From: Candidatus Saccharimonadota bacterium
GTDB lineage: Bacteria > Patescibacteriota > Saccharimonadia > Saccharimonadales > Saccharimonadaceae
Length of the DNA: 64,000 nucleotides
Direction: 5' to 3'
Assembly: GCA_009786195.1 (NCBI GenBank)
Contig: WQTP01000043.1
Coordinates: forward strand, 24,503-88,502
Shown: positions 21,925 to 51,130 of the stretch, piece after piece
Layout of the letters: every line of letters starts with the position of its first letter
Numbering within the stretch: position 1 is the stretch's first letter
Position numbers and translations under genes: made by a program
The notes under the pieces: model-generated
What the model saw: the letters and a program-made list of their open reading frames with translations, nothing else
Told to the model about the DNA's origin: nothing
Database searches by the model: none

Positions 21925-21992
21925 TTGCCCGTCTGCCCGCCAAGCCCCAAATCTTTCCCCTCAACACGCAATTTTCGCCCGGTTAATCCCGG
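21925..21992 (+). repeat. Copy B of a ~50-65-nt intergenic repeat (core AATCTTTCCCCTCAACACGC)
   Basis: It aligns by eye to 37358-37425 in direct orientation, with about 83% identity over a 48-nt core. It starts 6 nt after the xer stop codon. Confidence 0.7.
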
Positions 21993-23206
21993 CAGTTATC
22001 CGCACCTGCTTTGTCCAAAATCGTCATATTTTTACAAATCTTTCCCGCAGAATCAACAGCGTAATCTGGCCACCATTGACCTTCATCACTACTATTGTCT
22101 GGGTTAAGACGAGCGCCCAGGCGTTTTAATGATTCACCAGCACGACCAGTCACATCGACAGCAGCTTGTACATTATTAAGATAAAGATCGTTGCCAGATG
22201 CATCTTTAGCTGATAAACGAAAGTGGGCATTTCGATAAATTGCTTGTAGGCGCAAGTAGTAATCGTATCGATCGGTATCGAACAAATAATTTGTACCCCC
22301 GCTACCGGGAACTTTTGGAATCGTAAATGAAATGCTGCAAGCGTAACCATCACTACTAACACCACTTTGACACCGTACTTGCATAAGAAACATCTTGGAG
22401 TCGGTCGCTGCATTTGGTTGATTTTTTGCTATCCAACTATCAAGATTATAAGCATCTGAAATTTTTCCGGCGCCAAAAGCATCCTCAGTTGTACTGGGTC
22501 GAAGTGTCACCGCGCGTGTATTCTCCACCAAATTATCAATCGTAAACGTGCCGATCGGAACAGCTACGAATTCTGCTCGCAAAACAGCTGGGGTCATTTT
22601 ACCCCATTGATTAATTGGCGGTAGATTATTGCCAGCTAGCAGTTCGGCACTTCCTTCATCATCTCGGCTGGTACTGTGCCATTGCAAACGAATCGTTTTT
22701 GCTGGTACAGACGTACCATCCGCACTGGAAAATCTAAGTGGAATAATGACTGATGTACTTCGACCTTCCGCGCTACCATTGCTATCCAGAGATCCTAGAT
22801 AATCGGGTGTCATCATAGTCATTTTAAGACAGAGATATTCTTCATTATTACCTCCATCGCCAACTTTAACACTCGATCCGGAAGCTGTCCGCTGCAAAGC
22901 GTGCATCAGTGAGCTAGTACCAGAAATTTCCGTACAAGTACTTTCCTCTATTGGTTTATCTAACATTCCACAACCCAGACCCCCCGACACGCAGTAACTA
23001 AGAATACGCTTGGCATCTTCGATACCAGCTTCGGCAGCTGCTTTGGCAGAAGCGGCCAATTCGTCATTAACTGTCTGGCGTGAAGCCATGACCATTACGC
23101 GCGAAAAACTAATTACCAGCACTGAAAACAGTAGAATAAATATGATAACCGTCAGAATTGATACTTGACCAGATTCTTTATTAGTACCTACCCCTACTTT
23201 GTTCAT
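21983..23206 (-). CDS. PilX-like pilus assembly protein (N-terminal PilX domain)
   Basis: The N-terminal hydrophobic segment GQVSILTVIIFILLFSVLVISF is followed by ...AASAKAAAEAGIEDAK. It is the last gene of the minor-pilin operon. Confidence 0.6.
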   Translation of the reverse strand: MNKVGVGTNKESGQVSILTVIIFILLFSVLVISFSRVMVMASRQTVNDELAASAKAAAEAGIEDAKRILSYCVSGGLGCGMLDKPIEESTCTEISGTSSLMHALQRTASGSSVKVGDGGNNEEYLCLKMTMMTPDYLGSLDSNGSAEGRSTSVIIPLRFSSADGTSVPAKTIRLQWHSTSRDDEGSAELLAGNNLPPINQWGKMTPAVLRAEFVAVPIGTFTIDNLVENTRAVTLRPSTTEDAFGAGKISDAYNLDSWIAKNQPNAATDSKMFLMQVRCQSGVSSDGYACSISFTIPKVPGSGGTNYLFDTDRYDYYLRLQAIYRNAHFRLSAKDASGNDLYLNNVQAAVDVTGRAGESLKRLGARLNPDNSSDEGQWWPDYAVDSAGKICKNMTILDKAGADNCRD

Positions 23207-23886
23207 TATTCTAACCTCCTATATGTTATTATATCAAACTCTGCGAATGCACAATATTGGTTTTTGCTGGCTTTAAATACACCCTCAACAACTTGACCAC
23301 ATTGCCAACGACCAATGCCCGCGTTGTAACGTGGTTGATCACTATGATCATCATCTTTGATCCCTTCGGCCGAAAAGACCGCCTGGATGCGCAACAACCC
23401 AGTAACACCACTCACTACTTCGAATTTTTGGACAACTACACCAGGTCCGAGTAGAGCACCGATATCTGGATCGTTACGACTCGGCATTTCGCTGCCATAA
23501 CAATATTTACCAGTACTATCAAGGATACGCACTAATCGCAACTTAGTGGTACTCAGATCAGTTTCTTCTGCGTACTGATTCATGGTCGAATCAACAGTAT
23601 TCCACAGATATGTGATGTTTCCAACACAAAATCGCTGTTGACTATTACTGATCGTAGCGTTATTTTTGGAAAATCGCACTTGATCAATAACATCAGCGTT
23701 AATTTGACGACCAGCTTGATTGATTTGACTGATCCAAATTCCCTTGTTATAAGTTTGCATAATACTCAACATCATCGATGTTAAAAACAAGATGATAAAA
23801 GCGACAAAGATTAACGACATTGACAGCTCAACTAGTGTAAAACCCTTTTCTTGATGTTGTTTGGTAATAATAAGTTGTCGTTTCAT
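23206..23886 (-). CDS. Minor type IV pilin (prepilin-type N-terminal cleavage/methylation domain)
   Basis: Class III signal: KG|FTLVELSMSLIFVAFIILF, with Glu at +5. Confidence 0.8.
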   Translation of the reverse strand: MKRQLIITKQHQEKGFTLVELSMSLIFVAFIILFLTSMMLSIMQTYNKGIWISQINQAGRQINADVIDQVRFSKNNATISNSQQRFCVGNITYLWNTVDSTMNQYAEETDLSTTKLRLVRILDSTGKYCYGSEMPSRNDPDIGALLGPGVVVQKFEVVSGVTGLLRIQAVFSAEGIKDDDHSDQPRYNAGIGRWQCGQVVEGVFKASKNQYCAFAEFDIITYRRLE

Positions 23887-23888
23887 AA

Positions 23889-25373
23889 TTATGGCCCCAA
23901 ATAAGTTATTCTTGCGTAACCGTTACCAGTTTGACCAATTTCAACACCGCCACTGGGATGCGGGATGCTACAAACACTACCATCCCCAGGACAAGTTATA
24001 TAATCTGTAAAATTAAAGTTAGTAGTATTAACGTAACCCGAACCGCCGCCGCCAGGTATACCAGCACCACCGCCGAACCAACCGCCACCGCCGCCAGTAG
24101 AGTTACCACTACTTCCATTTCCACCTTGCCCAAATGCCCCAGCGCCATTACCCGACCCGCCGCTACCACCACTACCGCTCGGGATACCGTTAACACAACC
24201 ACTAGTAACACCGCCGCCGCCCTCTGGGTTAGAACTAGGACCATCACCCTTTACGCCCACACCACCACTACAACCACCCCCAGCACCACCTGTTGCAGGT
24301 AATTTACCATTTTTACCAAGAGTTCCGGCGCCGCCGCCAGCGACAATTAGCACTTTGTCTCGATTACCACTTAAAGTATTCAGAGTACCACCTACTAACG
24401 CTATATGTGTAGCACCGCCACCACCGCCAGCACCCCAGCCGCTCGAGTGACCCGTACCACCACCATTCCAACCACCAGAGGTCGTCTCACCTGTAATAGC
24501 AGTACCACCACCCGCGCAGCCAATACTGACGTGTAGTACTAGTGTAATACCAGCATTGAGTTTAACTATTCCACGAGAATATCCGCCCAAACCTCCCGGA
24601 AAATTAACACCTCCGTCGCTTCCGGGTCCTCCTTGAGCACCCCAAACTTCCAATTTGTACCGACCGGTTCGAGCAACAACGTATTCTTGACTATTATTAT
24701 TTGGACAAGGATCATTCGGCGGTGTCCAGGGCACTTTAAGTAGTGCTGTAGTTTTGTCCAAAACATAGTCGTAAATACGAACAACTGTGGTGCTCTGACT
24801 ATCAACATTTGCCGCAGTACTACCGAGCGGCGTCCAACAAGCTTTAATATAGAAATCAATATATGGTTGTTGGTTGGTTTTCATGTCCTGTTTATAATAA
24901 ACTGCGTCAATCCAGACACCTTGACCAGTAACAGCTCGTTGAATGCGGTTCGTACCATTTATTTCTTCAATTAAGTTATCGATCACCGTAATGCCAGAAA
25001 CGCTGTTATCAATTTCAATATTTGGTTCAAGATAAAAACTACCCGGCACTGCGCTACTCGCATCACCGCCAGGATTCAGTTGGCAACGATTGGTGGCTTC
25101 GGTCGGTGCGCTACCGTCAACAACGTTACCGTCATAAGCTAAGTTCATAATCATCGCCCAATTAGTTTTGTCATTACGATAAACATAGTTCAGTAGATCC
25201 GTTTGAGTATTAATATCCGCTCGGGTTGCTGTTCGTTCTGCCGAATTCAGAATCGAGATCATCGAACGATTCATTGTCGCCATCACACCACCCACAATAA
25301 TACCGAGAACTGTGATTGCAATCAGCACTTCGACTAAAGTATCACCCCGTTGATGCTTGTTCATATGCCGCAT
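23889..25373 (-). CDS. Minor pilin-like protein with C-terminal ALK/LTK-type glycine-rich domain
   Basis: The N-terminus is QRG|DTLVEVLIAITVLGIIVGGV (Glu +5). The C-terminal ~250 aa run from RYKLEVWGAQGGPGSDGG..PGGLGGYSRG...GGGGATHIALVGG to ...GNGYARITY, the motif pattern of the Pfam Gly_rich (PF12810) family. Confidence 0.7.
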   Translation of the reverse strand: MRHMNKHQRGDTLVEVLIAITVLGIIVGGVMATMNRSMISILNSAERTATRADINTQTDLLNYVYRNDKTNWAMIMNLAYDGNVVDGSAPTEATNRCQLNPGGDASSAVPGSFYLEPNIEIDNSVSGITVIDNLIEEINGTNRIQRAVTGQGVWIDAVYYKQDMKTNQQPYIDFYIKACWTPLGSTAANVDSQSTTVVRIYDYVLDKTTALLKVPWTPPNDPCPNNNSQEYVVARTGRYKLEVWGAQGGPGSDGGVNFPGGLGGYSRGIVKLNAGITLVLHVSIGCAGGGTAITGETTSGGWNGGGTGHSSGWGAGGGGGATHIALVGGTLNTLSGNRDKVLIVAGGGAGTLGKNGKLPATGGAGGGCSGGVGVKGDGPSSNPEGGGGVTSGCVNGIPSGSGGSGGSGNGAGAFGQGGNGSSGNSTGGGGGWFGGGAGIPGGGGSGYVNTTNFNFTDYITCPGDGSVCSIPHPSGGVEIGQTGNGYARITYLGP

Positions 25374-26212
25374 AAACTCCTTAAACTTCCGACGGATGGT
25401 GAAGTTGGACTACCGAAATCATAATATGGATCAGCTGGAACAATCGATCGGGCAGCTACTGAGCTAGATCCGCTATCGATACAAATTGCTCCACCCTTAA
25501 ATCCAACTTGAACGTTTTTAATCATAATCGCTAATGGTTGATTAACTTTAGCAGTGGTCAGATTAAGAATCCCAGTACCACTAACTGGATTGGATGAAGC
25601 GAACGAGAAAATTAACACTGCACCGCTGATTGGACTGTGTAAAATAGCTAGTCCACTTGACTTGATAGGACTATCAATATCAGAAGTTGGAATCGTCCAA
25701 CTGGTAGCAAATTCACCACCCCACGCTAGTTGGATGTTTTTTGGTATGATTGCGGGATCACTTGTTTTAACCTCGTAAAGACTGGAACTATCACCAATAA
25801 CTGCTAATTCCATGCTGCGAAGTGCAGATTCATCACCCATATTAAAATACCGATTATCCGTATCCTCCACCAAAACTATATAACTAATTTTGATATTTTG
25901 ACTATTTGGTACAAATTCAATTAATTTACCAATCGCTAAACATTTACTGTTGCCAGTCACATTTACGCCCGGATCAATCGTTCCATCGATGGGACATTTA
26001 ACAACACCGTTAGTGCCCACCCGTTCGTTAATGTTAGTCCTAACTTCCTCATATTCAGCTTGAATCGTATTGCGTAATGTCGTCATCGTATCTTGGAATC
26101 GTTGTCGCGAGACCATTGTCCAAAGTCCAACAGTTAACAATATCAACGAGGCAGAAATAGCCAGGAATAATGCCACCTCAATAATCGTGAACCCCCGTTC
26201 TTTCATGCTCAC
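25361..26212 (-). CDS. Minor type IV pilin (prepilin-type N-terminal domain)
   Basis: MSMKERG|FTIIEVALFLAISASLILLTV. Confidence 0.8.
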   Translation of the reverse strand: MSMKERGFTIIEVALFLAISASLILLTVGLWTMVSRQRFQDTMTTLRNTIQAEYEEVRTNINERVGTNGVVKCPIDGTIDPGVNVTGNSKCLAIGKLIEFVPNSQNIKISYIVLVEDTDNRYFNMGDESALRSMELAVIGDSSSLYEVKTSDPAIIPKNIQLAWGGEFATSWTIPTSDIDSPIKSSGLAILHSPISGAVLIFSFASSNPVSGTGILNLTTAKVNQPLAIMIKNVQVGFKGGAICIDSGSSSVAARSIVPADPYYDFGSPTSPSVGSLRSLCGI

Positions 26213-26232: not shown

Positions 26233-27057
26233 TCAGTACAAGAAATACTTTTCCACTAAATTAGTTAAGTTCGGCAAAAACAAAAAGATCAAAAAGGTCG
26301 CTAGGATGAGAAACGGTCCAAATGGAATTTTACTGTTTATGGTTAATTTTCGCTTGATAAGTAACGGTAGCATCGCTAATGTGCCGATTAGATTAGCGCC
26401 AGCCAAAACCAAAACTGCCCCTAGCCAATTGACTAACAGTCCAACTACTAGGCCGAACTTAACATCACCAAAACCAATCCATTTACCACGTGATATCAGA
26501 TATAATAAACCGTAAATACCTGCTACTGGCAACATCGCCAGACCGATCTGAGTCAAAAAATCAATCAACTCCAACTGTTCGATAAAGATGTTGCTAAAAA
26601 CGCTCAGTACTGTTGCCACGCCAACTAGCGGCCAGAGTAGTTTATTCGGTAATAATCGCCAACGTGCATCATAAACGAACAGTGCTGACATCAGCACCAC
26701 AATCACCAACCAAATACCGAACAGCGCGAGTTGTCCCCAGTCCAGATTATGACCAACTATAATTTCACCCAATGGCCAAAACAAATAAGAACTAACAAAC
26801 GCCGCCGCTACACTGATTTCGAGAATTAACGTTAACCAACCAATTGGTTTTCGACAGTAACGACATTTACCGCGCAACATTAACCATGACAAAATTGGTA
26901 TTAAATCACATACCGCTAGTTGATGTTTGCAGTGTTCACAAATACTTCGACTTTTTACCCAATCCATTTTCCGATGCATTCGCCAGGTTAGCGCACCAAC
27001 AAATGAACCGCACGCTGCACCAATTAGAGCCGCAAAAATTGCTATGGCTGCTGCCAT
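26233..27057 (-). CDS. pilD: Prepilin peptidase (A24 family)
   Basis: The N-terminal zinc-binding CEHC...CRYC, the catalytic Asp context GFGDVKF and a multi-TM architecture are present. The ATG directly abuts the pgi stop (TAAATG). Confidence 0.88.
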   Translation of the reverse strand: MAAAIAIFAALIGAACGSFVGALTWRMHRKMDWVKSRSICEHCKHQLAVCDLIPILSWLMLRGKCRYCRKPIGWLTLILEISVAAAFVSSYLFWPLGEIIVGHNLDWGQLALFGIWLVIVVLMSALFVYDARWRLLPNKLLWPLVGVATVLSVFSNIFIEQLELIDFLTQIGLAMLPVAGIYGLLYLISRGKWIGFGDVKFGLVVGLLVNWLGAVLVLAGANLIGTLAMLPLLIKRKLTINSKIPFGPFLILATFLIFLFLPNLTNLVEKYFLY

Positions 27058-28314
27058 TTAATTCCTTTGACCAAGCAGGCGGGACATATGATTTTTATAA
27101 GTTTCGACGCCAGGTTGATTAAATGGATTTACCCCCATAGTGTAAGCTGACAGAGCAATAGACATTTCCATAAAGTAAATAAAACAACCAATTTCATAGG
27201 CGTTTAGTTTGGGAATATCAATTAACATCACTGGGATGTCGTCTTCACCGTGCGCTAGTACTGTGGCTTCGTAGGCCTGTTGATTAATGAAGGATAGTGT
27301 TTTACCAGTCAAATAATCCAATTTATCTTCGTTGTTAGCGCCATCTTTGGGAATAATAATTTCAATTGGTGTTTCTTGAATGTTAACAAAAGTTTCAAAA
27401 AATTGGCGCTTGCCGTCCTGACAATACTGCCCCAGGGAATGAAGATCGGTCGTACAGATCATCGGATAAGGAAGAATACCCTGTCGGTTTTTACCTTCAC
27501 TCTCGCCAAATAATTGTTTCCACCACTCAGCTACACCGGAAAAACTCGGTTCAAAACAAGTTAAAATTTCGACACCCAAACCTTTGTTGTATAAAATATT
27601 ACGAATCGCAGCATAATCCATCGCGTCGGCTATCGATCGACCTTTAGCTTCTTTAGCACCATCCATAAGAGCGTTAATATCGACGCCAGCCACCGCAATT
27701 GGTAATAATCCAACAGCCGTTAGGACTGAATAACGACCAGCAATGTTATCTGGTACGACAAATCTTTCATAACCTTCCTTGACTGCAAAATCGTGAAGAG
27801 TTCCATCACTAGCGTCGGTTGTTACATAAATTCGACGATTAGCAATTGCTCCGTAACGTTCAATTAACTTTTCTCGTAAAATACGAAAAGCTAAAGCTGG
27901 TTCAAGTGTAGTACCAGATTTGGAAATAACATTAATTGACCAATTCTTACCTTCGAGTTTTTTGAGCACTTTACTTAGTCCAACTGATCCAAGACTGTCA
28001 CCAGCGAACAAAACATCAACTGAACGATCATCGCCAAGTAATTTAATCACCGCCCGAGCCCCCAAAAATGAGCCGCCGATGCCGACAACTACTAGAATAT
28101 CGCTATTTTCCCGAATTCGAGCAGCAGCTGCTTTGATTCGAGCGAATTCATCATGATCGTAATTTTCCGGTAAATCGCGCCAGCCGAGGAATTCGCTACC
28201 CTCACCCGTCCCATTCATAATTTTATCGCGGGCCGCTTCAACTTGCGGTCGGATGGTTTCCATTTCTTTGTCGCTAATGGACGATTTGGTGTATTGGCTA
28301 TCAAACTTAATCAT
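27058..28314 (-). CDS. pgi: Glucose-6-phosphate isomerase (short bacterial/archaeal-type)
   Basis: VVVGIGGSFLGARA and ISKSGTTLEP are SIS-domain motifs. 418 aa. Confidence 0.88.
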   Translation of the reverse strand: MIKFDSQYTKSSISDKEMETIRPQVEAARDKIMNGTGEGSEFLGWRDLPENYDHDEFARIKAAAARIRENSDILVVVGIGGSFLGARAVIKLLGDDRSVDVLFAGDSLGSVGLSKVLKKLEGKNWSINVISKSGTTLEPALAFRILREKLIERYGAIANRRIYVTTDASDGTLHDFAVKEGYERFVVPDNIAGRYSVLTAVGLLPIAVAGVDINALMDGAKEAKGRSIADAMDYAAIRNILYNKGLGVEILTCFEPSFSGVAEWWKQLFGESEGKNRQGILPYPMICTTDLHSLGQYCQDGKRQFFETFVNIQETPIEIIIPKDGANNEDKLDYLTGKTLSFINQQAYEATVLAHGEDDIPVMLIDIPKLNAYEIGCFIYFMEMSIALSAYTMGVNPFNQPGVETYKNHMSRLLGQRN

Positions 28315-28396: not shown

Positions 28397-28948
28397 TTAG
28401 TTAGCAGTTTGGCAGTAATATTTACCTGCACCACCATTTTCAACTTGGACAACAACCGCAGCTGAGCGCGTTGCACCAGCTTTCAATTTTGTATGACCAT
28501 CACACGTTGCACCAGTGTAAACAATAATCGCATTGATGCTTGGATTAGTTGAAGTCGCAGTACCGGCAGCCGTTGTGGCGGCTGTGGCGGTGAATGTGTA
28601 CGGATAAGTAACGACCAACCCAGTGCCACTACCAGCTACGACGTTGATAAAGTCCACATTACCCGACACGGGGTCTAAGTACGCACCGAGATCAGTAGTA
28701 GCAACGGCAGTACCGTTGTACACGTTACCAGTACCAGGTATAGCATTCTTGTTGGCAATTGCGTTAACCACAGCTTGCACGGTGTCAGCAACATCGCGCT
28801 TGCGAGCGTCATCACGTTGATTCCTCTGCAACGCCGGGACCGCCAAGAACACAACCAGGAAGATTAATGCGGCGACCGCTAGCACTAATGCGACCTCAAT
28901 GATCGTAAAGCCCTTTGTTGCCTTTTTCTGCCTTCTAACTTTTGTCAT
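28397..28948 (-). CDS. pilA: Major type IV pilin
   Basis: The 13-aa basic leader MTKVRRQKKATKG| precedes FTIIEVALVLAVAALIFLVVFLAV. A C-terminal Cys...Cys D-region (TCDG...YYCQ) is present. The gene has its own upstream region and terminator. The ORF track start 28960 is a TTG; I prefer ATG 28948. Confidence 0.88.
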   Translation of the reverse strand: MTKVRRQKKATKGFTIIEVALVLAVAALIFLVVFLAVPALQRNQRDDARKRDVADTVQAVVNAIANKNAIPGTGNVYNGTAVATTDLGAYLDPVSGNVDFINVVAGSGTGLVVTYPYTFTATAATTAAGTATSTNPSINAIIVYTGATCDGHTKLKAGATRSAAVVVQVENGGAGKYYCQTAN

Positions 28949-29054
28949 ATCGTTACCCAACCCTTTCTTGATTAGTTGTTATAATTGACTAAGTTATTGT
29001 AACGCAGATAATAAAAAAACACAAGCACTTCCTACCGTAGTTTTCCACAGCCTA

Positions 29055-30251
29055 TTAACCAGACAAACTATAGATCGGCATCAGTACGGCAATCACAATA
29101 AAACCAATCATTGCTGCCATCACCACCATCAGAATTGGTTCGATGGTGGTCGAAATCGCTCGAATAGCATTATCGACTTCTTTTTCATAATAATCCGCAA
29201 CTTTACCGAGCATCGCATCGATACCACCAGATTGTTCGCCAATCTTAACCATTTGAGATACGAACGGCATAATGTATTCTTCGCCAGATAGCGCTTCGCT
29301 GAGCGCTTTACCGTTTTTGACTTTTTGGGCTGCTCGAAGAACTTCTTCTTTAACAACTGCATTATTGACTGCATCAGCACAAATCCTCAGAGCTTCGAGG
29401 AGTGATACACCCGACGATAATAGTGTTTCAGCAGTTCGTGATAATCGCGCCATGTAAAGTTTACGAAATAGCGGTGAAAATAGCGGCATGTTCAGTTTGA
29501 CAGTGTCCCAAGCTTTGCGACCACTCTCAGTATCAATCCAGCGTCTGAGTAGAATTACCGCACCAATTAGCATGGCGACCACAACATACCAATAATTAAT
29601 CACGAAATTAGCAATACCCACTAGAATCTGAGTGGTGAGTGGTAGTTCTTTATTCATATCGCGGTAGAGACTCTCAACCTGCGGCACTAGAGCAATTAAC
29701 ATAAAACCAACCACCGCGACGATAACCGCTAGAACAATCGCTGGGTAAACCATCGCACCTTTGATTTTGCTCAGCATATCAGCATCGTGTTCTTGTTGAT
29801 TTGCCAAACGTTCTAGTGATTTATCAAGCGTACCAGAAGTTTCACCAGCCCGCACTAGAGCAATGAAAACTTGGTTGAAAACTTTGGGATATTTAGCAAA
29901 ACTATCCGCTAATGATCGACCACCGTTGACATCTGCTAGTACTCCACCAACCATACCCTTCAAGGTTTTGTTGGCAGTTTGTTCTTCGACCGTCGAAAGT
30001 GATTGCGCCAGTGGTAGACCCGCATTGATCATCGTCGCCAGCTGACGCGAGAAAATAACTCGATCCTTGGATGAAACTCGCGAACCAAATGATTTTAGCA
30101 CACCAGCGTTGCTAGTGACGGTAATCTTGATCGGTACGATATGTTGTGTCATCAAAAGTTTCGCCGCTGCACCTTCAGAATCAGCCTGGATAGTACTTTT
30201 AATGATTTTATTCGTAGCAGTATCGCGAGCAGTATAGTTAAAGTTCAACAT
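29055..30251 (-). CDS. pilC: Type IV pilus platform protein (GspF/PilC family)
   Basis: It is 398 aa with two T2SSF repeats and three TM segments. Confidence 0.88.
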   Translation of the reverse strand: MLNFNYTARDTATNKIIKSTIQADSEGAAAKLLMTQHIVPIKITVTSNAGVLKSFGSRVSSKDRVIFSRQLATMINAGLPLAQSLSTVEEQTANKTLKGMVGGVLADVNGGRSLADSFAKYPKVFNQVFIALVRAGETSGTLDKSLERLANQQEHDADMLSKIKGAMVYPAIVLAVIVAVVGFMLIALVPQVESLYRDMNKELPLTTQILVGIANFVINYWYVVVAMLIGAVILLRRWIDTESGRKAWDTVKLNMPLFSPLFRKLYMARLSRTAETLLSSGVSLLEALRICADAVNNAVVKEEVLRAAQKVKNGKALSEALSGEEYIMPFVSQMVKIGEQSGGIDAMLGKVADYYEKEVDNAIRAISTTIEPILMVVMAAMIGFIVIAVLMPIYSLSG

Positions 30252-30254
30252 AAC

Positions 30255-31319
30255 TTAACCCCTCATGATCCTTTCGAATTCTGCTAGATCAACTGCGAAG
30301 TTTTTCGCTTCATCATAAGTAATTTGTCCCGATTGCACCATCTGAGCTAACGTGCGATCCATTGATTGCATACCCTCTTGAGCACTAGTTTGGATAACCG
30401 AATCAAGTTGATGCGTTTTTCCTTCACGAATAATATTACGTACCGCTGAATTAGCAATTAAAATTTCTGCAGCAGCAAGGCGCCCACCACCGATCGCTGG
30501 TATCAAGCGCTGCGAACAGATTGCCTGGAGAATATTAGCTAACTGAGCTTTGATCTGCGGTTGTTGATGCGGCGGGAAAACGTTAACCATGCGATCGATT
30601 GATTGAGATGCTGAGTTAGTGTGCAGAGTTGCGAAAACTAAGTGTCCCGTTTCCGCAATAGTAATCGCTGCTGAAATTGTTTCGAGATCACGCATTTCAC
30701 CGATCAGCACAACATCTGGATCTTCGCGCAACGCTGAACGAAGAGCGGCGTTAAACGAATAAGTATCATAGTGAACTTCACGCTGAACAATGACGCTTTT
30801 TCGCGATTTGTGGGTAAATTCAATCGGATCCTCAATAGTTATGATGTGTACCGCTTTTTCTGAATTAATTTTATCGACCAAAGCCGCTAAGGTGGTTGAT
30901 TTACCCGAACCAGTCGGTCCAGTCACTAATACTAAACCGCGCGGGTAATCAGCAAACTTTTCAACAACAGCCGGCAGCCCTAGTTCGACAACTGATGGCA
31001 TATCATTTGGGATTAAACGCAAAGCTGCCGCTAAGTTGCCACGTTCGTGAAAAGCGTTAACCCGAAATCGACCCAAATCACCAAAAGCGAAAGAAAAATC
31101 GAACTCTTTATCTTTGATTAAAATTTGTTGTTGATCCTGATCAAGAATAGAAAAAACCAATTTTTCGACCGTTTCGGCCGTTAAAACAGCGGTATTAGCG
31201 ATTGGACCAAGTGCACCATCGACTCGGAGCATTGGCGACAAACCAACCTGCAAGTGCAAGTCACTAGCACGTTGATTAATGACCTCTTGTAGTAATACCT
31301 CGATGCGTACGTTATCCAT
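30255..31319 (-). CDS. pilT: Type IV pilus retraction ATPase
   Basis: It is 354 aa with Walker A GPTGSGKSTT and the PilT signature ...SAVRNIIREGKTHQL. Confidence 0.9.
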   Translation of the reverse strand: MDNVRIEVLLQEVINQRASDLHLQVGLSPMLRVDGALGPIANTAVLTAETVEKLVFSILDQDQQQILIKDKEFDFSFAFGDLGRFRVNAFHERGNLAAALRLIPNDMPSVVELGLPAVVEKFADYPRGLVLVTGPTGSGKSTTLAALVDKINSEKAVHIITIEDPIEFTHKSRKSVIVQREVHYDTYSFNAALRSALREDPDVVLIGEMRDLETISAAITIAETGHLVFATLHTNSASQSIDRMVNVFPPHQQPQIKAQLANILQAICSQRLIPAIGGGRLAAAEILIANSAVRNIIREGKTHQLDSVIQTSAQEGMQSMDRTLAQMVQSGQITYDEAKNFAVDLAEFERIMRG

Positions 31320-31344
31320 TGTCCCTCCCTTTTCCTAGATAAAA

Positions 31345-31353
31345 TTTTATCAT
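31345..31353 (-). promoter_or_regulatory. Extended -10 (TGATAAAAT) internal promoter upstream of pilT
   Basis: It lies in the 54-nt pilB-pilT spacer, followed by the SD AAGGGAGGG. Confidence 0.5.
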
Positions 31354-31373
31354 AAGCGTTACCTTCTTGCAAC

Positions 31374-33158
31374 CTATGCCATATTGGACGCCACCCGATT
31401 AACTTCTTCGAGCGTAGTCATGCTATTTAAAGCCTTCAAATAACCATCAACATGCATTGGGATCATACCCTGAGCGATAGCTAAACGTTGAATCTGACTC
31501 GATGTAGCATGTTTGATAATCAATTGTTGGATTTCCTCAGTAATATTCATCACTTCGTAAAGTCCGAGCCGACCTTTATACCCACCTGGAGCTTGCGGTG
31601 ATTCCTTACCCCTAACCAGAGTAAAAGATGGAGCATCGACCAGCGGTAAACTATCATAACCGAGATCTTCAGACGCACTGGCCACTTCGGCCTCAGTTTT
31701 CGGCAATAGATAACCAACCACATCCCTGATTGAGGTACTTTCTACTTCGTTACTCTGATAAACTTCACGTTCAGCTGCCACGCGTCTAACCAAGCGCTGA
31801 CCGATAACTGTGTTAACTGTCGACGCGATCAAAAATGGTTCGATACCCATATCGATCAAACGTGGTAAAATACCAGCCGCTGAATTAGTGTGGAGTGTTG
31901 AGAAAACTAAGTGCCCGGTCAACGCCGCTTGCACCGCTAGATTAGCGGTTTCACCATCGCGAATTTCTCCAACTAGCACAACATCTGGATCTTGACGGAG
32001 AATTGACCGCAGACCACTGGCAAAAGTTAGGCCGACCGCAGTATTAACCTGAATCTGGTTAACACCATCCATCTTGTACTCAACCGGATCTTCTAGTGTG
32101 ACGATATTGATCTCATCGCTGAAAATTTCTTGAACTAACGCGTAAAGTGAAGTTGATTTACCCGAACCAGTCGGTCCAGAAGTTAACACCATACCATTAG
32201 GTTTTTTGACACCCTGACGAATTGTTCTGAGCGCCCGGCCGGCATAACCCATTTCCTCTAATTTGAAGGATGAACCAGATTTATCTAATAGACGGATAAC
32301 TACTTGTTCACCCCAAACAACTGGTGAAATAGCGATACGTAGGTCAACTTCTTTGTCACCAACCATAACTGTAAATTGACCATCTTGCGGTTTACGATGT
32401 TCGTCAATTTTGAGATTTGACAGAATTTTAATGCGTGAAATCAACGCTGGTTCGGTTGATTTTGGTAGCGACATAACTTCTCGCAGCACACCATCAATTC
32501 GACAACGAATTTTTAAACGATCCTCGAGAGGTTCGATGTGAATATCCGAAGCTCGCGCTCGCTGAGCGTACTCGAGCAACTGGGTGAGAATTTTGCTAAT
32601 TGGTGAATCCTGAATAAGTACTTTAACATCAGTACTCGATCCCTCTTCACCACCAGTTTTAGCGTTTTCTTCACCACTAGTTAGTTCGTCGACTCGGCTA
32701 ACATCCAGGTGATATTGTCCCAGCACATTATTAATACCAGCTTCCGAAGCAACATAAATTTTAATCGGACGACCAACAGCATTGGACAAGAAATCAGTAG
32801 CTTGGACATTACTAGCATCCAGTACTGCTACAGCCAAGCGCTTAGTACCGCTATCGTTGGTCTCACCCAAAGGAACTGCCATGAAGCGTTGGGCTACGTC
32901 AACTGGCAGTAGCGATAGCACTTTGTTATCAATGATTGCTTTAGACAGATTAACATACGGCGTCCCCGACGTATGAGCGATAGCTTCAGTTAGTTGCTCT
33001 TCGCTGACCGCTCCAGTTTTTGTCATATAGGCGAATAACGGCTCGCCGGCCTTTTTGGCTTCTTCATCCAAAGCGTTAAGTTGATCTAACTGAATAACCC
33101 CCAGCTCAATCAGGCGTTCCTCAATCTTTTTTTGGGTTTCCTCGGTCAGGACGGCCAT
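31374..33158 (-). CDS. pilB: Type IV pilus assembly ATPase (GspE/PilB family)
   Basis: It is 594 aa with an N-terminal GSPII_E_N domain, Walker A GPTGSGKST and Asp/His boxes. Confidence 0.9.
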   Translation of the reverse strand: MAVLTEETQKKIEERLIELGVIQLDQLNALDEEAKKAGEPLFAYMTKTGAVSEEQLTEAIAHTSGTPYVNLSKAIIDNKVLSLLPVDVAQRFMAVPLGETNDSGTKRLAVAVLDASNVQATDFLSNAVGRPIKIYVASEAGINNVLGQYHLDVSRVDELTSGEENAKTGGEEGSSTDVKVLIQDSPISKILTQLLEYAQRARASDIHIEPLEDRLKIRCRIDGVLREVMSLPKSTEPALISRIKILSNLKIDEHRKPQDGQFTVMVGDKEVDLRIAISPVVWGEQVVIRLLDKSGSSFKLEEMGYAGRALRTIRQGVKKPNGMVLTSGPTGSGKSTSLYALVQEIFSDEINIVTLEDPVEYKMDGVNQIQVNTAVGLTFASGLRSILRQDPDVVLVGEIRDGETANLAVQAALTGHLVFSTLHTNSAAGILPRLIDMGIEPFLIASTVNTVIGQRLVRRVAAEREVYQSNEVESTSIRDVVGYLLPKTEAEVASASEDLGYDSLPLVDAPSFTLVRGKESPQAPGGYKGRLGLYEVMNITEEIQQLIIKHATSSQIQRLAIAQGMIPMHVDGYLKALNSMTTLEEVNRVASNMA

Positions 33159-33161
33159 CGG

Positions 33162-33509
33162 TTACTCCGTAGTCGTAGTGAATGACGAGTTAATCGCACA
33201 TGAGTTAAAAACTGTGTTGATGTATTGTCGATCACCAGTGCTGATAGTTTCACCAGAATTGTTTTCGTCATTTTCATTCGTCATACTATTTTGATTGTTG
33301 TCACCACCAGTCTTTGGACACCAACTTGGTCGATTAGCATCGTAAAGAATAACATTGTTTTCTGGTGTTTGAATATCTGAGGTAATCGATGGCGCTACCC
33401 TAACCTTTTCGTCACTTGGGGGTGGTAAAATACTACCAATAATAAACCAACTAACAACCGCCACCACAACCACGATGATGATAACTAATGCCCAATCAGA
33501 TTTTTTCAC
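33162..33509 (-). CDS. Small single-pass membrane protein in the pilMNO operon (PilP-position protein, unknown fold)
   Basis: It has an N-terminal TM helix, a 4-nt overlap with the upstream gene and an Asn-rich periplasmic part. Confidence 0.45.
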   Translation of the reverse strand: MKKSDWALVIIIVVVVAVVSWFIIGSILPPPSDEKVRVAPSITSDIQTPENNVILYDANRPSWCPKTGGDNNQNSMTNENDENNSGETISTGDRQYINTVFNSCAINSSFTTTTE

Positions 33510-34264
33510 TGCGCTACCTCCTCACCACTAGCAGTTGCGTTCTCATCAACTGGTATAGTTTTCTCACCCCACTGCCAGTTTGCTTTTGGCACGAAGTAAG
33601 TTACTACCATAATCTTGACCGTTCGAGCATTATGTTCATCACTGTCAATTTCCAACGATTGAATGGTGATCGGATGTAAAGAATACTCTATCGACAACAG
33701 AGCTTTACTAATATCCGCGTCTGTGGCATTAATTAATTCAAAACTCACCATCATAGTAACCGCCTGTGGATCAATTGAACCACCAGTGTTAGTAATCCCC
33801 AAATTACTACAATCAACACCCGTCATAGTGGCTATCGCATCTTTGATGCCAGCCCCCAATCCTGAAGGTTTAAAAATCATATTTATAAAAGCATACTCAA
33901 CAGCCATTGAGTCGCATGATGATGGTAAAACATCAAAAACTATCTGCCATTTTTCTAGTTCTGGGTCAACTAATCCTTGAATTGATTTAACGTTAGTATT
34001 AGCGCTCAAAGCTTCGACATTTTCGCGCAGCAATGGGATGTTACTAATGCTGTCCTTCAGACTATTATTAGTCGCGCTCCATTCGGAATTAACTTTTAGT
34101 CGATAAGAAATACGTTGCCAAAAGTTGATTGACAACATCACACAAACAGTGACTATGGCGGCGGCGGCTGCCACGTAAATTATCATCTGTTTGTTAGTGG
34201 TAATGATTTGCTGGCGTTTTCTCACACCAGTTGCTGCGGCAGTGGTTGCTACTTTTTCACTCAT
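33506..34264 (-). CDS. PilO-like pilus alignment protein
   Basis: It is single-TM and coiled-coil-like, sits after pilN and has an ATGA overlap on both sides. The call rests on position and topology only. Confidence 0.5.
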   Translation of the reverse strand: MSEKVATTAAATGVRKRQQIITTNKQMIIYVAAAAAIVTVCVMLSINFWQRISYRLKVNSEWSATNNSLKDSISNIPLLRENVEALSANTNVKSIQGLVDPELEKWQIVFDVLPSSCDSMAVEYAFINMIFKPSGLGAGIKDAIATMTGVDCSNLGITNTGGSIDPQAVTMMVSFELINATDADISKALLSIEYSLHPITIQSLEIDSDEHNARTVKIMVVTYFVPKANWQWGEKTIPVDENATASGEEVAQ

Positions 34265-35094
34265 TGTCCACCCCCTTCGGCCGGTTCTCGGTTCTCTTTG
34301 TTTAGAGTTTCATCATCCAGCAGACTAGGGTCATTTTGACAACCCTCGCCGATTGTACCATAAGTCGCACTCCAAACTTTACAATTGTCAATCTCAACCG
34401 CTTGAATCCGATAATTAGTTTTAAACATAATTGAGTTGAACACCAGGGTGGCCTTGAATGGCCATTTGCCAGTGGTTTCATCCTGAACACCCCCAAGAAA
34501 ATCAAGTGTTGGTATCATTTCGGGAAACAGTTTCTGATCAGATTTAGTTTCACCTTCAATGACCGTACCAGAACCATCAGCTTGGTACTCTGAATATTTG
34601 ACCATAGCATAATAGAGACGGTTTCTCAACATCAAACGAGCCATCACTGTATCAACCTGACCACCCAGTTCAATTTCGATACCGCCAGACGCAGCTCCTG
34701 TTGTTAATATTTTGATAGTTCGCCAATCAGTCCAATGAAGTCCGTTAATCGGCATAGTACGCCCAAAAATAACATCTAAATAATCCATCAATCGAGATAG
34801 TTGTGGTTGATTTTCTTTGATAGTGTTAATCTGATTTAAACTGTTTTGGACTGATAAATAATCAGTTAGCTGATTTTTGACTTTTTCGCGCTCAATAGTT
34901 TCAATGTTTTTATTAACTTCACCGATTAAAATATTTTTTTGAATTACTAATCCACCCATAAAAAGACCCAATAGGACCACTATAGCACCCGCTCCGATAC
35001 TCACAAAAATACAAATCGTCATCACTAAACTACGCATGTGTTTAGCATGAAGTAATTCTTTTTTGACATCTGGCAGTAAATTTAACTGTAGCAT
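34261..35094 (-). CDS. pilN: PilN-like fimbrial assembly protein
   Basis: The N-terminal MLQLNLLPD motif (INLLP signature) is followed by one TM helix. Confidence 0.7.
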   Translation of the reverse strand: MLQLNLLPDVKKELLHAKHMRSLVMTICIFVSIGAGAIVVLLGLFMGGLVIQKNILIGEVNKNIETIEREKVKNQLTDYLSVQNSLNQINTIKENQPQLSRLMDYLDVIFGRTMPINGLHWTDWRTIKILTTGAASGGIEIELGGQVDTVMARLMLRNRLYYAMVKYSEYQADGSGTVIEGETKSDQKLFPEMIPTLDFLGGVQDETTGKWPFKATLVFNSIMFKTNYRIQAVEIDNCKVWSATYGTIGEGCQNDPSLLDDETLNKENREPAEGGGQ

Positions 35095-36140
35095 TAGACG
35101 CCCAGCCTTTCTGCCAAACCGACAGCTACTGCGAATTGTGATGAAACTGATGCTAATTTGGCTTGTTGATCAGCTGGTACATTGACATGTTGCCAAGGTG
35201 TTGCTACTTGTCCTGGCACGCCAGTTCGTTGACTGATTGTATCAATAAGTCCCGGTAAAATTGCCGCGTAGCCACTGGTTAAAATCGCACCAACACCAAC
35301 ACCAGTATATTTAGTGGCAAAGAATTTCAAGGATTTCTGAATTTCAGCAACTAATTGTTCCATCGTAGAATTTACCGCGTGCAATAGTTGCCCTTCTAAA
35401 CGATCTGGGACCACGCCAAATTTGAGTAGTAATTGTTGGGCTTGTTGTTCCTCAATATTCAAGTTTTGTTTGGCCATTTTGACCATTGTTTGAAAACCAA
35501 CTGGTATCGAGCGGATTAGTCGTGGTGCAGTACCAAGGGTCATAACTAAATCAGTCGAATTATCACCAACATCGAGAATTAGTCGTCCGTCCTGAACACC
35601 ATCTGGCAATAGTGACCGTGTTAACGCCAGTGAATCTGGTTCAATCGCAATTACGTTTAGTCCCAACCCCTCTAACAAATCGAGGCGCGCTTCAGTGAAA
35701 GTATTTGGTACACTAGCGACTAAAACTTCAACTTTTTGGTTATCGTTGGGTGATTCACCAATAATCGCCCAATCGATCTTAGCTTCGTCGGCCTTCATTG
35801 GTACATAGTTTTCAGCCTGATATTTAATTGTCGCGTTCAGCTCAGCTTTGGAGGCCACATTAGGAATTTCCACTACTGTTGCGAAAGTTCTTTGGGATGG
35901 GATACCAATAGCCACATCCTTAGTATGAATACCAGCCTGAGCAATCACGTTAGTAATCGCTTCACCTAAAAGTCGTTGATCTTTTTCGGCTGTTGATTCA
36001 CTCAACCGAACATCTATTGGTTGCACACCAAATTGTTTAATATTCCAACCGTGACCACCGTGCGAGAGTTCTACCACCCTAAGCGCCGTCGTTCCTATAT
36101 CTAAGGAAAAGAAACTGCCCACCATCTTATTTAAACTCAT
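35094..36140 (-). CDS. pilM: Type IV pilus assembly protein PilM (actin-like ATPase fold)
   Basis: FSLDIGTTALRVVEL, DVGDNSTDL and GGYAAILPGL-type motifs are present. 348 aa. Confidence 0.85.
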   Translation of the reverse strand: MSLNKMVGSFFSLDIGTTALRVVELSHGGHGWNIKQFGVQPIDVRLSESTAEKDQRLLGEAITNVIAQAGIHTKDVAIGIPSQRTFATVVEIPNVASKAELNATIKYQAENYVPMKADEAKIDWAIIGESPNDNQKVEVLVASVPNTFTEARLDLLEGLGLNVIAIEPDSLALTRSLLPDGVQDGRLILDVGDNSTDLVMTLGTAPRLIRSIPVGFQTMVKMAKQNLNIEEQQAQQLLLKFGVVPDRLEGQLLHAVNSTMEQLVAEIQKSLKFFATKYTGVGVGAILTSGYAAILPGLIDTISQRTGVPGQVATPWQHVNVPADQQAKLASVSSQFAVAVGLAERLGV

Positions 36141-51047: not shown

Positions 51048-51130
51048 TACACACCCTTCCCAGCAACCAACCACACTAGGCTACCAATATTCGTACTTTA
51101 AATTTAAACATAACCATTTAATCACACCAC

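What the first reader, a model, noticed from the sequence alone, without database searches (positions are those of the whole stretch)
23889..25373. Minor pilin fused to an ALK/LTK-type glycine-rich domain: candidate pilus-tip recognition module
**Seen in the sequence.**
- The ORF starts with a class III (prepilin) signal, QRG|DTLVEVLIAITVLGIIVGGV, with the conserved Glu at +5 but an unusual Asp at +1.
- A ~230-aa globular part follows.
- A ~250-aa glycine-rich module then runs from YVVARTGRYKLEVWGAQGGPGSDGG..PGGLGGYSRG through GGGGATHIALVGG and multiple GGxGG blocks to GNGYARITY.

**From established knowledge.** That ordered motif series is the pattern of the Pfam Gly_rich family (PF12810), whose fold is known from the ligand-binding domain of ALK/LTK receptors.

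**Inference.**
- Placing such a module on a pilin scaffold, inside a minor-pilin operon with PilX, would put it at the pilus tip.
- In an episymbiont that attaches to a host bacterium through type IV pili, this protein is a plausible host-recognition determinant.
- I am not aware of a characterised pilin with this domain.
Basis: partly seen in the sequence, partly recalled or inferred. Interest (0 to 1): 0.72.

Follow-up and report, generated by a model that had tools for sequence, protein, structure and literature searches.

The report
Pilus subunit carrying ALK-type glycine-rich domain
A Saccharibacteria type IV pilus operon encodes a minor pilin with an ALK/LTK-type glycine-rich domain grafted onto its C-terminus, a fold that phages also use on tail fibres, so it is a plausible but untested surface-binding module of a kind of "modular pilin" that is already known.

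Summary

**What it is**
- It passes Pfam thresholds for N_methyl and for ALK_LTK_GRD (E 4.5e-23, near full length).
- An AlphaFold model gives ALK/LTK structures as its 21 best PDB matches.
- Twelve glycine motifs keep their order across 83 homologues, so this is not low complexity.
- The pilin part (about 200 aa) belongs to a family with at least 1,203 detected members. Asp at +1 is present in 121 of 121 intact N-termini.
- It occupies the slot called pilZ1 in the T4P-1 locus of Nanosynbacter lyticus TM7x.

**What varies**
- Most relatives are stand-alone pilins of 170-240 aa.
- In some Saccharibacteria the same slot carries this domain, Ig-like repeats or other modules. One contig holds two tandem paralogues with different modules.

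**What remains inference**
- Tip display and binding to a host bacterium are not tested.
- In TM7x, host tethering was assigned to the other pilus, T4P-2.

**Novelty**
- The pilin-PF12810 architecture is already listed in a 2021 catalogue and recurs in Firmicutes-type pilins from gut metagenomes.
- I found no characterised example. This is a new member of a known kind, of moderate interest.

The parts
23889..25373 (-). Whole ORF, 494 aa: bimodular minor pilin (pilZ1-slot pilin plus glycine-rich domain). Stop codon at 23889-23891.
   Evidence: identical to NCBI MCL2280988.1 from M4
25344..25373 (-). Leader peptide, aa 1-10 (MRHMNKHQRG), ending in Gly-1. The alternative start M4 at 25364 overlaps the upstream stop as ATGA.
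   Evidence: N_methyl and TIGR02532 above cut-off
24765..25343 (-). Pilin module, aa 11-203: Asp+1, Glu+5, alpha1 helix to about aa 67, five-stranded beta-sheet, invariant Cys97 and Cys179.
   Evidence: AF2 models (scaffold-only pLDDT 88.6); alignments A2 and A4; Asp+1 in 121/121
24693..24764 (-). Flexible Pro-rich linker, aa 204-227 (DKTTALLKVPWTPPNDPCPNNNSQ). This is the point where homology to alternative-module relatives stops.
   Evidence: pLDDT below 50 at 203-220; 14-19% identity to relatives; homology break
23892..24692 (-). ALK/LTK-type glycine-rich domain (TNF-like plus glycine-rich part), aa 228-494, 34% Gly, pI 7.6.
   Evidence: PF12810 83 bits; Foldseek top 21 PDB hits are ALK/LTK; bacterial profile finds 7LIR at E 3e-7; motif order; composition
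25361..26212 (-). Upstream minor pilin, 283 aa (ERG|FTIIE), in the pilV1 position.
   Evidence: gene order as in TM7x
23206..23886 (-). Downstream minor pilin, 226 aa (EKG|FTLVE), in the pilW1 position.
21983..23206 (-). PilX-like subunit, 407 aa, no Glu5 (G|QVSIL), in the pilX1 position; the likely cap of the minor-pilin complex.
   Evidence: PilX_N 20.2 bits, below the 25.5 cut-off; sequence
26233..27057 (-). Prepilin peptidase PilD.
   Evidence: A24_N_bact 85 bits and Peptidase_A24 37.6 bits
28397..28960 (-). Candidate major pilin, 187 aa (TKG|FTIIE), in the pilA1 position.
29055..36140 (-). Assembly machinery: PilC (29055-30251), PilT (30255-31319), PilB (31374-33158), three small ORFs without Pfam hits (33162-35094; by position the PilO/PilN-type alignment proteins), PilM (35094-36140).

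Best explanation
The gene encodes a bimodular type IV minor pilin.

**Anatomy**
- The N-terminal module of about 200 aa is the conserved Asp+1 core minor pilin of the Saccharibacterial T4P-1 locus. It occupies the slot named pilZ1 in Nanosynbacter lyticus TM7x. IMG calls some homologues PilV.
- A flexible Pro-rich linker of about 25 aa follows.
- The C-terminal module is an ALK/LTK-type domain combining a TNF-like part and a glycine-rich part.

**Proposed mechanism (inferred)**
1. PilD cleaves after Gly10.
2. The alpha1 helix assembles with the neighbouring PilV1-like and PilW1-like pilins and the PilX1-like subunit that lacks Glu5. Together they form the complex that primes the pilus and stays at its tip.
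3. The glycine-rich domain then projects from the tip as a rigid scaffold whose non-glycine loops bind a surface ligand, most likely on the host bacterium's envelope. Phages use the same fold this way on tail fibres.

**Evolution**
The slot behaves as a cassette position. Relatives carry no module, this domain, Ig-like repeats or other modules.

**Shown versus inferred**
Domain identities, operon context, grafting onto a conserved scaffold and module exchange are shown. Cleavage, incorporation into the pilus, tip location and the ligand are inferred.
For: **Pilin features**
- Pfam and NCBIfam hits above cut-off; Gly-1, Glu+5 and a hydrophobic alpha1 helix.
- PilD, PilA, PilC, PilT, PilB and PilM lie in the same operon.
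- The genes are tightly coupled: an ATGA overlap upstream and a 2-nt gap downstream.

**Glycine-rich domain**
- PF12810 at 83 bits.
- The 21 best PDB matches by fold are all ALK/LTK, probability 1.0.
- A profile of bacterial copies alone finds ALK homologue 7LIR at E 3e-7.
- Motif order is conserved.

**Same syntenic slot, different C-termini**
- 219 aa stand-alone (L029).
- 479 and 494 aa with the glycine-rich domain (L003 and the window).
- 825 and 847 aa with Ig/Y_Y_Y-like repeats (L001, L030).
- Homology between paralogues stops exactly where the scaffold ends.
- One contig holds two tandem paralogues with different modules.
- GRD-type and Ig-type forms co-occur in one sample, SRR6219231.

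**Divergence**
Non-glycine identity to the three GRD-bearing orthologues is 58-67% in the scaffold and 21-41% in the domain.

**The fold is used outside the cell and on virions**
- Four PHROG families match at E 8e-22 to 4e-7.
- 57 viral models match at E <= 1e-3, including a virion structural protein and a putative short tail fibre.
- The Bxb1 tail tip chain 9d93_Qb matches at E 3.7e-3.
- The Pam3 gp24 tail fibre has TNF-like plus glycine-rich domains proposed to recognise the host receptor (PMC9608196).

**Background from papers**
- Modular pilins are expected at pilus tips (PMC8179133).
- T4P-1 genes are essential in two Saccharibacteria.
Against: - No experiment bears on cleavage, assembly, location or ligand.
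- In TM7x the host-binding defect mapped to T4P-2 (PilA2, PilX2), not to T4P-1. A T4P-1 module may therefore serve traction or another contact.
- The pilin module could not be typed as GspH, I, J or K-like. Foldseek gave no PDB hit at E <= 1e-3, and the profile search found only N-terminal helices.
- Asp at +1 is unusual, and its effect on PilD processing or N-methylation is unknown.
- The two Firmicutes-type pilin-GRD genes I examined sit away from pilus machinery, so the fusion does not by itself prove pilus display.
- The divergence comparison rests on only three orthologues.
- The relative orientation of the two modules is undefined (pTM 0.59, disordered linker).
Confidence: 0.55

Rival explanations
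1. The domain is displayed on the T4P-1 pilus but is not a host-specificity determinant. It gives general adhesion or traction for twitching, for example on gut surfaces, on polysaccharide, or between cells of the same species.
For: The locus matches TM7x T4P-1, the twitching pilus, while host tethering was assigned to T4P-2. The alternative modules in the same slot are generic Ig-like repeats, with a sub-threshold ricin-lectin hit in one. The domain is near neutral with no obvious specificity feature.
Against: The module differs between co-occurring relatives and between tandem paralogues. That pattern is more typical of specificity determinants. Phage proteins with the same fold are proposed receptor binders. 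Saccharibacteria outside clade G1 are reported to have only locus one, so that pilus would also have to mediate host contact there.
Confidence: 0.2
2. The pilin-type N-terminus serves only as a membrane anchor or export signal. The protein stays at the cell surface as a pseudopilin-like anchor and is never polymerised into the filament.
For: In the two Firmicutes-type cases examined, pilin-GRD genes are orphans away from pilus genes. Asp at +1 is atypical. Fold search could not match the scaffold to any solved pilin.
Against: The scaffold occupies a fixed slot between two other minor pilins and downstream of PilD across distant Saccharimonadales. Glu+5 is invariant. The genes are translationally coupled. 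Most family members are plain pilins of 170-240 aa with nothing to anchor.
Confidence: 0.13
3. The glycine-rich domain has a mechanical or structural role, such as a rigid cap, a retraction stop or a spacer, rather than binding a ligand.
For: Polyglycine-II bundles are rigid, compact scaffolds (literature). No ligand is known for any bacterial member.
Against: Unrelated folds replace it in the same slot, and it is absent in most relatives. A structural requirement of the pilus is therefore unlikely. Non-glycine positions diverge fast.
Confidence: 0.08
4. It is an artefact: Gly-rich low complexity, or two genes fused by misassembly or frameshift.
For: The region is 34% glycine. The closest solved homologues share only 17-22% identity.
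Against: The Pfam score is far above threshold with full-length coverage. Motif order is conserved in 83 homologues. AF2 is confident over most of the domain. The same fusion is found in independent assemblies: P0002, P0003, P0005, and three contigs carrying P0001.
Confidence: 0.01

Closest known systems
Modular type IV pilins: Streptococcus sanguinis PilB (vWA module) and PilC (lectin module) (Raynaud et al. 2021, PMC8179133; PMC9934059)
   Same: A small pilin module with a class III signal peptide, a short linker and a bulky functional module at the C-terminus. Display at the pilus tip is proposed. The pilin-PF12810 architecture is itself listed in that paper's Dataset S1.
   Different: The module here is a TNF-like plus glycine-rich domain, not vWA or lectin. 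The scaffold is a Saccharibacteria-specific Asp+1 pilin. Nothing has been tested experimentally.
ETEC CofB and Vibrio cholerae TcpB, tip-located minor pilins with extra C-terminal domains (from established knowledge; CofB is discussed in PMC8179133)
   Same: A minor pilin carrying additional beta-rich domains after a flexible linker, thought to initiate assembly and sit at the tip, where it contacts a partner.
   Different: Those belong to type IVb pili and act as trimers with their own folds. Here the locus is a IVa-like system with four minor pilins, which implies one copy per tip.
ALK/LTK ligand-binding domain (TNF-like plus glycine-rich; PDB 7LS0, 7N00, 7NWZ, 7NX1, 7LIR)
   Same: Homologous domain: PF12810 above cut-off, the 21 best fold matches, and a profile hit to 7LIR.
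   Different: Identity is 17-22% and TM-scores are modest (0.30-0.46 normalised to the target). There is no EGF-like domain, no kinase and no ALKAL-type ligand, so the ligand cannot be carried over.
Phage receptor-binding proteins with polyglycine-II domains: Pam3 gp24, Salmonella phage S16 gp38, mycobacteriophage Bxb1 gp33 'brush' (PMC9608196; PMC13243192)
   Same: An extracellular glycine-rich bundle at the distal end of a filamentous organelle that contacts a bacterial envelope. [quoted passage not shown] Many phage proteins share the fold.
   Different: The match to the solved Bxb1 chain is weak (E 3.7e-3), and Pam3 and S16 were not among the 50 PDB matches listed. The phage proteins are trimers or need chaperones. 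tblastn of the domain against the phage genome collection found nothing.
TM7x PilX2 and PilY1-type tip adhesins (PMC12206443)
   Same: A large non-pilin-like domain associated with a minor-pilin set in Saccharibacteria and proposed as the adhesin.
   Different: PilX2 is a seven-bladed beta-propeller on T4P-2. This protein is in the T4P-1 locus, in the pilZ1 slot, and carries a different fold.

Membership tests
Type IV pilin / prepilin (class III signal peptide) | Short basic leader ending in Gly-1, followed by a hydrophobic stretch with Glu at +5 | tested here: met
   MRHMNKHQRG|DTLVEVLIAITVLG. PF07963 scores 26.3 bits (cut-off 21.2) and TIGR02532 19.5 (cut-off 16.3). Gly10 and Glu15 are invariant in 23 homologues.
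Type IV pilin / prepilin (class III signal peptide) | Typical +1 residue (Phe, Met or another hydrophobic residue) that is N-methylated | tested here: not met
   The +1 residue is Asp, as in 121 of 121 family members. From established knowledge, +1 substitutions in P. aeruginosa PilA are tolerated for cleavage. The effect here is unknown.
Type IV pilin / prepilin (class III signal peptide) | Lollipop fold: a long N-terminal alpha1 helix packed against an antiparallel beta-sheet | tested here: met
   AF2 gives helix 10-67 and strands 113-201 at pLDDT 88.6. However, no solved pilin matched at E <= 1e-3.
Type IV pilin / prepilin (class III signal peptide) | Cleavage by a co-encoded prepilin peptidase and incorporation into a filament | not testable with these tools
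   PilD is encoded two genes upstream. Processing and assembly need experiments.
ALK_LTK_GRD (PF12810) | Profile match above the curated threshold over most of the model | tested here: met
   83 bits against 24.5, covering profile positions 6-243 of 243.
ALK_LTK_GRD (PF12810) | Fold similarity to solved ALK/LTK TNF-like plus glycine-rich domains | tested here: met
   The 21 best Foldseek PDB hits are all ALK/LTK, E 7e-7 to 1.3e-4, probability 1.0, TM-score 0.30-0.46 normalised to the target.
ALK_LTK_GRD (PF12810) | Lattice of polyglycine-II helices | not testable with these tools
Indirect support: 34% Gly, nine runs of three or more Gly, and pLDDT 88-96 over much of the domain where DSSP assigns little secondary structure.
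Modular pilins (sense of Raynaud et al. 2021) | N-terminal pilin module, linker, then a separable module not specific to pilus biology | tested here: met
   Stand-alone scaffold homologues end where the linker begins. The module is exchanged in relatives. The architecture is listed in Dataset S1.
Core minor-pilin tip complex (GspH/I/J/K or FimU/PilV/PilW/PilX type) | One of four adjacent minor-pilin genes, the last lacking Glu5 | tested here: met
   The order is 283-aa, 494-aa and 226-aa pilins, all with Glu5, then a 407-aa PilX_N-like subunit without Glu5. The order is the same in TM7x.
Core minor-pilin tip complex (GspH/I/J/K or FimU/PilV/PilW/PilX type) | Assignable by sequence or fold to one of the four classes | tested here: inconclusive
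   Only weak hits driven by the N-terminal helix (PilV TIGR02523 at 16 bits against a cut-off of 52). There is no significant fold match. IMG names two homologues PilV.
Phage polyglycine-II receptor-binding domains (S16 gp38, Pam3 gp24, Bxb1 gp33) | Detectable fold or sequence relationship to a solved member | tested here: inconclusive
   Bxb1 9d93_Qb matches at E 3.7e-3, probability 0.80. Pam3 and S16 are not among the 50 matches listed. Matches to uncharacterised phage GRD proteins are strong.

The most novel reading that the evidence does not exclude
The pilZ1 slot of the Saccharibacterial T4P-1 operon is a host-range cassette. Lineages graft and exchange receptor-binding modules (the glycine-rich domain, Ig-like repeats, other folds) onto one conserved Asp+1 tip pilin, and sometimes keep two versions in tandem. 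This would parallel how phages swap tail-fibre tips. The glycine-rich module would be the same TNF-like plus polyglycine-II device that phages use to recognise bacterial envelopes, so an episymbiont and phages would share a host-recognition toolkit.
Probability: 0.25. Interest if true: 0.75.

Novelty: new member of a known kind. Interest (0 to 1): 0.5.

Why it matters
**Open question it touches.** How ultrasmall episymbionts pick and hold their host bacteria is unresolved. Only one candidate pilus adhesin, TM7x PilX2, has genetic support.

**What this adds.** It gives a concrete, variable candidate on the other, essential pilus. It also identifies a defined position in a conserved operon where modules are exchanged. 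That position could be mined across genomes and tested by module swaps in the genetically tractable strains.

**Wider relevance.**
- It places the ALK/LTK glycine-rich domain among bacterial and phage surface proteins: 3,761 cluster representatives match, and many are giant proteins with several copies.
- This bears on what the fold did before animals used it as a cytokine receptor.

**Limits.** The architecture is already catalogued, the organism is uncultured, and no function is demonstrated.

Tried and rejected
- **Typing the pilin module.** A scaffold-only AF2 model (pLDDT 88.6) gave no PDB hit at E <= 1e-3; the best were leviviral coat proteins. A profile search of PDB sequences found only N-terminal helices of geopilin and PilA. 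No class could be assigned.
- **Single-sequence search of the PDB** with the full protein missed ALK. A profile of bacterial copies was needed.
- **tblastn of the domain against the phage genome collection** found nothing at 1e-5. The BLAST low-complexity filter, which the tool applies, may contribute. PHROG profiles and fold search did find phage relatives.
- **Diversity-generating retroelement or phase variation.** There is no template/variable repeat pair in the window and no long tandem repeat in the gene, only short codon-level repeats. Rejected.
- **DNA-binding competence pilin.** The domain has pI 7.6 with 11 K+R against 10 D+E. Not supported.
- **Mobile island.** The Xer-like integrase next to the operon is conserved in synteny in all relatives examined. 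It is probably chromosomal XerC/D.
- **Census of long forms.** Searches with the 211-aa scaffold listed nothing longer than 418 aa and omitted P0001-P0010, although these contain the scaffold. The frequency of modular forms therefore cannot be estimated from them.
- **Environment and taxonomy.** There is no rRNA in the window. The closest species representatives are two Candidatus Saccharibacteria MAGs, isolates Emb289P3bin132 and Th196P4bin6. From memory, that naming is from a higher-termite gut MAG study; I did not verify this.
Full report
**1. The observation**

Window 23889-25373 holds an uninterrupted 494-aa ORF on the minus strand. The plus-strand frame is full of stops.

- The product begins MRHMNKHQRG|DTLVEVLIAITVLGIIVGGV.
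- Pfam N_methyl scores 26.3 bits against a cut-off of 21.2. TIGR02532 scores 19.5 against 16.3.
- PF12810 ALK_LTK_GRD scores 83 bits against a cut-off of 24.5 (E 4.5e-23). It covers aa 235-492 and profile positions 6-243 of 243.
- The protein is identical from M4 to NCBI MCL2280988.1, annotated only as a prepilin-type N-terminal cleavage/methylation domain protein of Candidatus Saccharibacteria.
- M4's ATG overlaps the upstream gene's TGA as ATGA. The next gene starts 2 nt after the stop.

**2. Is the glycine-rich part a real domain?**

Yes, on four independent lines.

- Across 83 homologues, twelve motifs keep their order, from G.YKLE.WGAQGG to GNGYA.IT.
- An AlphaFold2 model built on 89 sequences has mean pLDDT 80, and much of the domain scores 88-96.
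- The model's 21 best PDB matches are all ALK or LTK ligand-binding domains. E-values run from 7e-7 to 1.3e-4, probability is 1.0, and TM-scores normalised to the target are 0.30-0.46.
- A profile made only of bacterial copies finds the C. elegans ALK homologue 7LIR at E 3e-7. A single-sequence search had missed it.

The domain is 34% Gly and near neutral, with pI 7.6.

The family is large. 3,761 cluster representatives match at E <= 1e-3 and 1,317 at E <= 1e-10. Many are giant proteins with up to 10 copies.

**3. The pilin part**

- The model shows an alpha1 helix to about aa 67 and a five-stranded sheet ending near aa 201.
- Searching with aa 1-211 returns only stand-alone pilins of 143-240 aa. 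They end at RIYD, exactly where the query's linker starts.
- A profile search finds 1,203 relatives at E <= 1e-5. Of the 120 best, 116 are 169-240 aa.
- Asp at +1 is present in 121 of 121 intact N-termini. Gly-1, Thr+2 and Glu+5 are invariant in the 23-sequence alignment, and Cys179 is too; Cys97 is near-invariant there and invariant among the ten closest relatives.
- The class of minor pilin could not be settled. No solved structure matched by fold. Profile hits were confined to the N-terminal helix. The PilV model scored 16 bits against a cut-off of 52. IMG labels two homologues PilV.

**4. Context**

The whole cluster is on the minus strand.

| Position | Gene | Evidence |
|---|---|---|
| 35094-36140 | PilM | |
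| 33162-35094 | three small ORFs with no Pfam hit | |
| 31374-33158 | PilB | |
| 30255-31319 | PilT | |
| 29055-30251 | PilC | |
| 28397-28960 | 187-aa pilin, candidate major pilin | |
| 27058-28314 | phosphoglucose isomerase | |
| 26233-27057 | PilD | |
| 25361-26212 | 283-aa pilin | |
| 23889-25373 | this gene | |
| 23206-23886 | 226-aa pilin | |
| 21983-23206 | 407-aa PilX_N-like subunit without Glu5 | |

- No other class III signal occurs in the window.
- The order matches T4P locus one of Nanosynbacter lyticus TM7x: pilC1-pilA1-pilD-pilV1-pilZ1-pilW1-pilX1 (supplement of PMC12206443). This gene therefore sits in the pilZ1 slot.
- A primer that anneals just downstream of TM7x pilV1 encodes N-R-G-D-T-I in one frame. 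This suggests that TM7x pilZ1 shares the G|DT start. That is my inference from the primer sequence.
- In TM7x, the locus-one pilins that were targeted could not be deleted, and T4P-1 is described as the pilus used for twitching motility.
- Host-binding defects mapped to T4P-2, specifically PilA2 and PilX2.
- In Southlakia epibionticum, most T4P genes are class I essential (PMC10633639).

**5. Module exchange**

The same syntenic slot carries different C-termini in different relatives. In every case it lies between a pilin of about 285 aa and one of about 225 aa, with Xer, NDK and SurA-like genes beyond.

| Locus | Slot product |
|---|---|
| L029 | 219 aa, stand-alone |
| L010, a distant Saccharimonadales | 213 aa, stand-alone |
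| L003 and the window | 479 and 494 aa, glycine-rich domain |
| L001 and L030 | 825 and 847 aa, Ig/Y_Y_Y-like repeats, plus an extra signal-anchored helical protein |

- Alignment shows high conservation up to about aa 206 and none after it.
- On contig L032, the GRD-type P0005 is followed directly by P0008. P0008 shares 58% identity over the scaffold and nothing beyond it.
- Sample SRR6219231 contains both the window's GRD type and the Ig type.
- Further variants of 300-418 aa exist.
- Against the three GRD-bearing orthologues, non-glycine identity is 58-67% in the scaffold, 14-19% in the linker (all residues) and 21-41% in the domain.
- I found no retroelement-type repeat or phase-variation tract.

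**6. What the domain is likely to do**

No bacterial member has a known function. The contexts in which it occurs are all extracytoplasmic.

- *Firmicutes-type pilins.* Thirty of the 120 best full-length matches have class III signals, but the first ten are the Saccharibacterial scaffold relatives themselves. Twenty of the other 110 match the motif, and two more (P0097, AFTLIE; P0114, GYFLAE) were missed by it. A further 18 of 136 representatives also have such signals. Their pilin modules did not appear in scaffold searches, so these fusions appear independent.
- *Other anchors.* There are signal-anchored proteins, and one protein with a Por-secretion tail.
- *A PilY1 fusion* is listed in Dataset S2 of PMC8179133.
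- *Phage proteins.*
  - Four PHROG families match at E 8e-22 to 4e-7.
  - 57 viral models match by fold, the best at 2e-15. They include a virion structural protein and a putative short tail fibre.
  - The Bxb1 tail-tip chain 9d93_Qb matches weakly. PMC13243192 describes polyglycine bundles in Bxb1 gp33 and gp29 in that entry. I did not establish which protein chain Qb is.
  - The solved Pam3 tail fibre gp24 joins a TNF-like domain to a glycine-rich domain with 39% Gly. It has a conserved stem and variable distal tips, proposed to bind the host receptor (PMC9608196).

By analogy, the module is best read as a rigid display scaffold for a surface ligand. The ALK cytokine ligand cannot be transferred to this protein.

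**7. Mechanism and rivals**

*Most likely mechanism, with the inferred steps marked.*
1. PilD cleaves at G10|D11 (inferred).
2. The pilin module joins the four-subunit minor-pilin complex that primes the pilus and caps it (inferred from operon composition and established knowledge of GspHIJK and FimU-PilVWX complexes).
3. The domain hangs from the tip on a flexible linker and binds an envelope component of the host bacterium (inferred).

*Rivals.*
- General adhesion or traction rather than host specificity. This is favoured by the T4P-1 assignment.
- A surface anchor that never enters the filament. This is favoured by the orphan Firmicutes-type genes, and disfavoured by the conserved slot, the invariant Glu5 and the mostly plain relatives.
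- A purely structural role. This is disfavoured because the module is optional and is replaced by unrelated folds.
- An artefact. This is refuted by the results in sections 1 and 2.

**8. Comparison and novelty**

It works like, and qualifies as, a modular pilin in the sense of Raynaud et al. 2021.

- Their Dataset S1 already lists IPR012902-PF12810 (two proteins) and a three-copy form (one protein), without comment.
- I found no paper that characterises a pilin with this domain.
- It is therefore a new member of a known kind.
- The new elements are the identification of the scaffold as the Asp+1 pilZ1-slot pilin, the evidence that this slot exchanges modules, and the link to phage receptor-binding folds.

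**9. Verdict**

- Confidence that this is a genuine pilin-GRD fusion is about 0.95.
- Confidence that it is a pilus-displayed binding module is about 0.55.
- Confidence that it determines host specificity is about 0.25-0.35.
- Interest is 0.5.

Noticed in passing
window 21943-21981 and 37377-37415: A 39-nt direct repeat (85% identical; a 31-nt degenerate consensus derived from the two copies is expected 0 times by chance). Each copy lies 25-30 nt downstream of a plus-strand gene: the Xer-like integrase and the YchF GTPase. Together the two copies bracket the whole T4P cluster. The repeat is absent from the 32 related loci. Its function is unknown; it could be a terminator, a REP-like element or a small RNA.
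   Followed up: partly
window 49543-50354, inside ORF 48348-51074 (-): Six tandem copies of a 108-nt unit (70-78% identical to the reference copy) inside a 908-aa ORF with no Pfam hit. This would encode a 36-aa repeat protein.
   Followed up: no
window 25341-25343 (codon 11) and homologues P0126-P0383: Asp at pilin position +1 is present in 121 of 121 intact N-termini of this minor-pilin family, including distant Saccharimonadales. It defines the family, but its role in cleavage, methylation or subunit packing is unexplained.
   Followed up: partly
window 27058-28314 (-): A phosphoglucose isomerase gene sits between the major pilin and pilD. It is also there in L003 and L030 but not in L001 or L029, so it is a lineage-variable insertion in the pilus operon.
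   Followed up: no
L032 194-1615 and 1678-3231: Two tandem paralogues of the same pilin scaffold (58% identical over about 205 aa) carry unrelated C-terminal modules. One is the glycine-rich domain. The other is a 300-aa region with no Pfam hit.
   Followed up: yes
L001 10511-11410; L030 9579-10433: Loci with the Ig-repeat version of the pilin carry an extra gene of 284-299 aa directly downstream. It encodes a signal-anchored, mostly helical protein that is not a pilin, and it is absent from the GRD-type and stand-alone loci examined. It may be an accessory factor or chaperone.
   Followed up: partly
L012 (DATLCF010000001.1, titled Nevskiaceae bacterium): This 562-kb contig has the Saccharibacteria-type synteny: PilC, PilA, PilD, a pilin, a 149-aa G|DTLVE pilin, a pilin, a PilX-like gene, Xer, NDK, then two further ORFs in the positions that bPH-like and SurA-like genes occupy in the other loci (these two were not scanned). 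The taxonomic label of the MAG is probably wrong.
   Followed up: no
L027 8001-14837: A Firmicute-like contig from a human gut metagenome (the contig also encodes SpoVS) carries three adjacent paralogues with Flg_new repeats plus glycine-rich domains. One has PF21722 Gly_rich_2. The cluster is far from any pilus machinery, and the first gene has a pilin-type N-terminus.
   Followed up: partly
tool behaviour: Searches with the 211-aa scaffold listed no protein longer than 418 aa and omitted P0001-P0010, although these contain the scaffold at 47-100% identity. Hits much longer than the query seem to be lost, so counts of modular forms from these searches are lower bounds.
   Followed up: no
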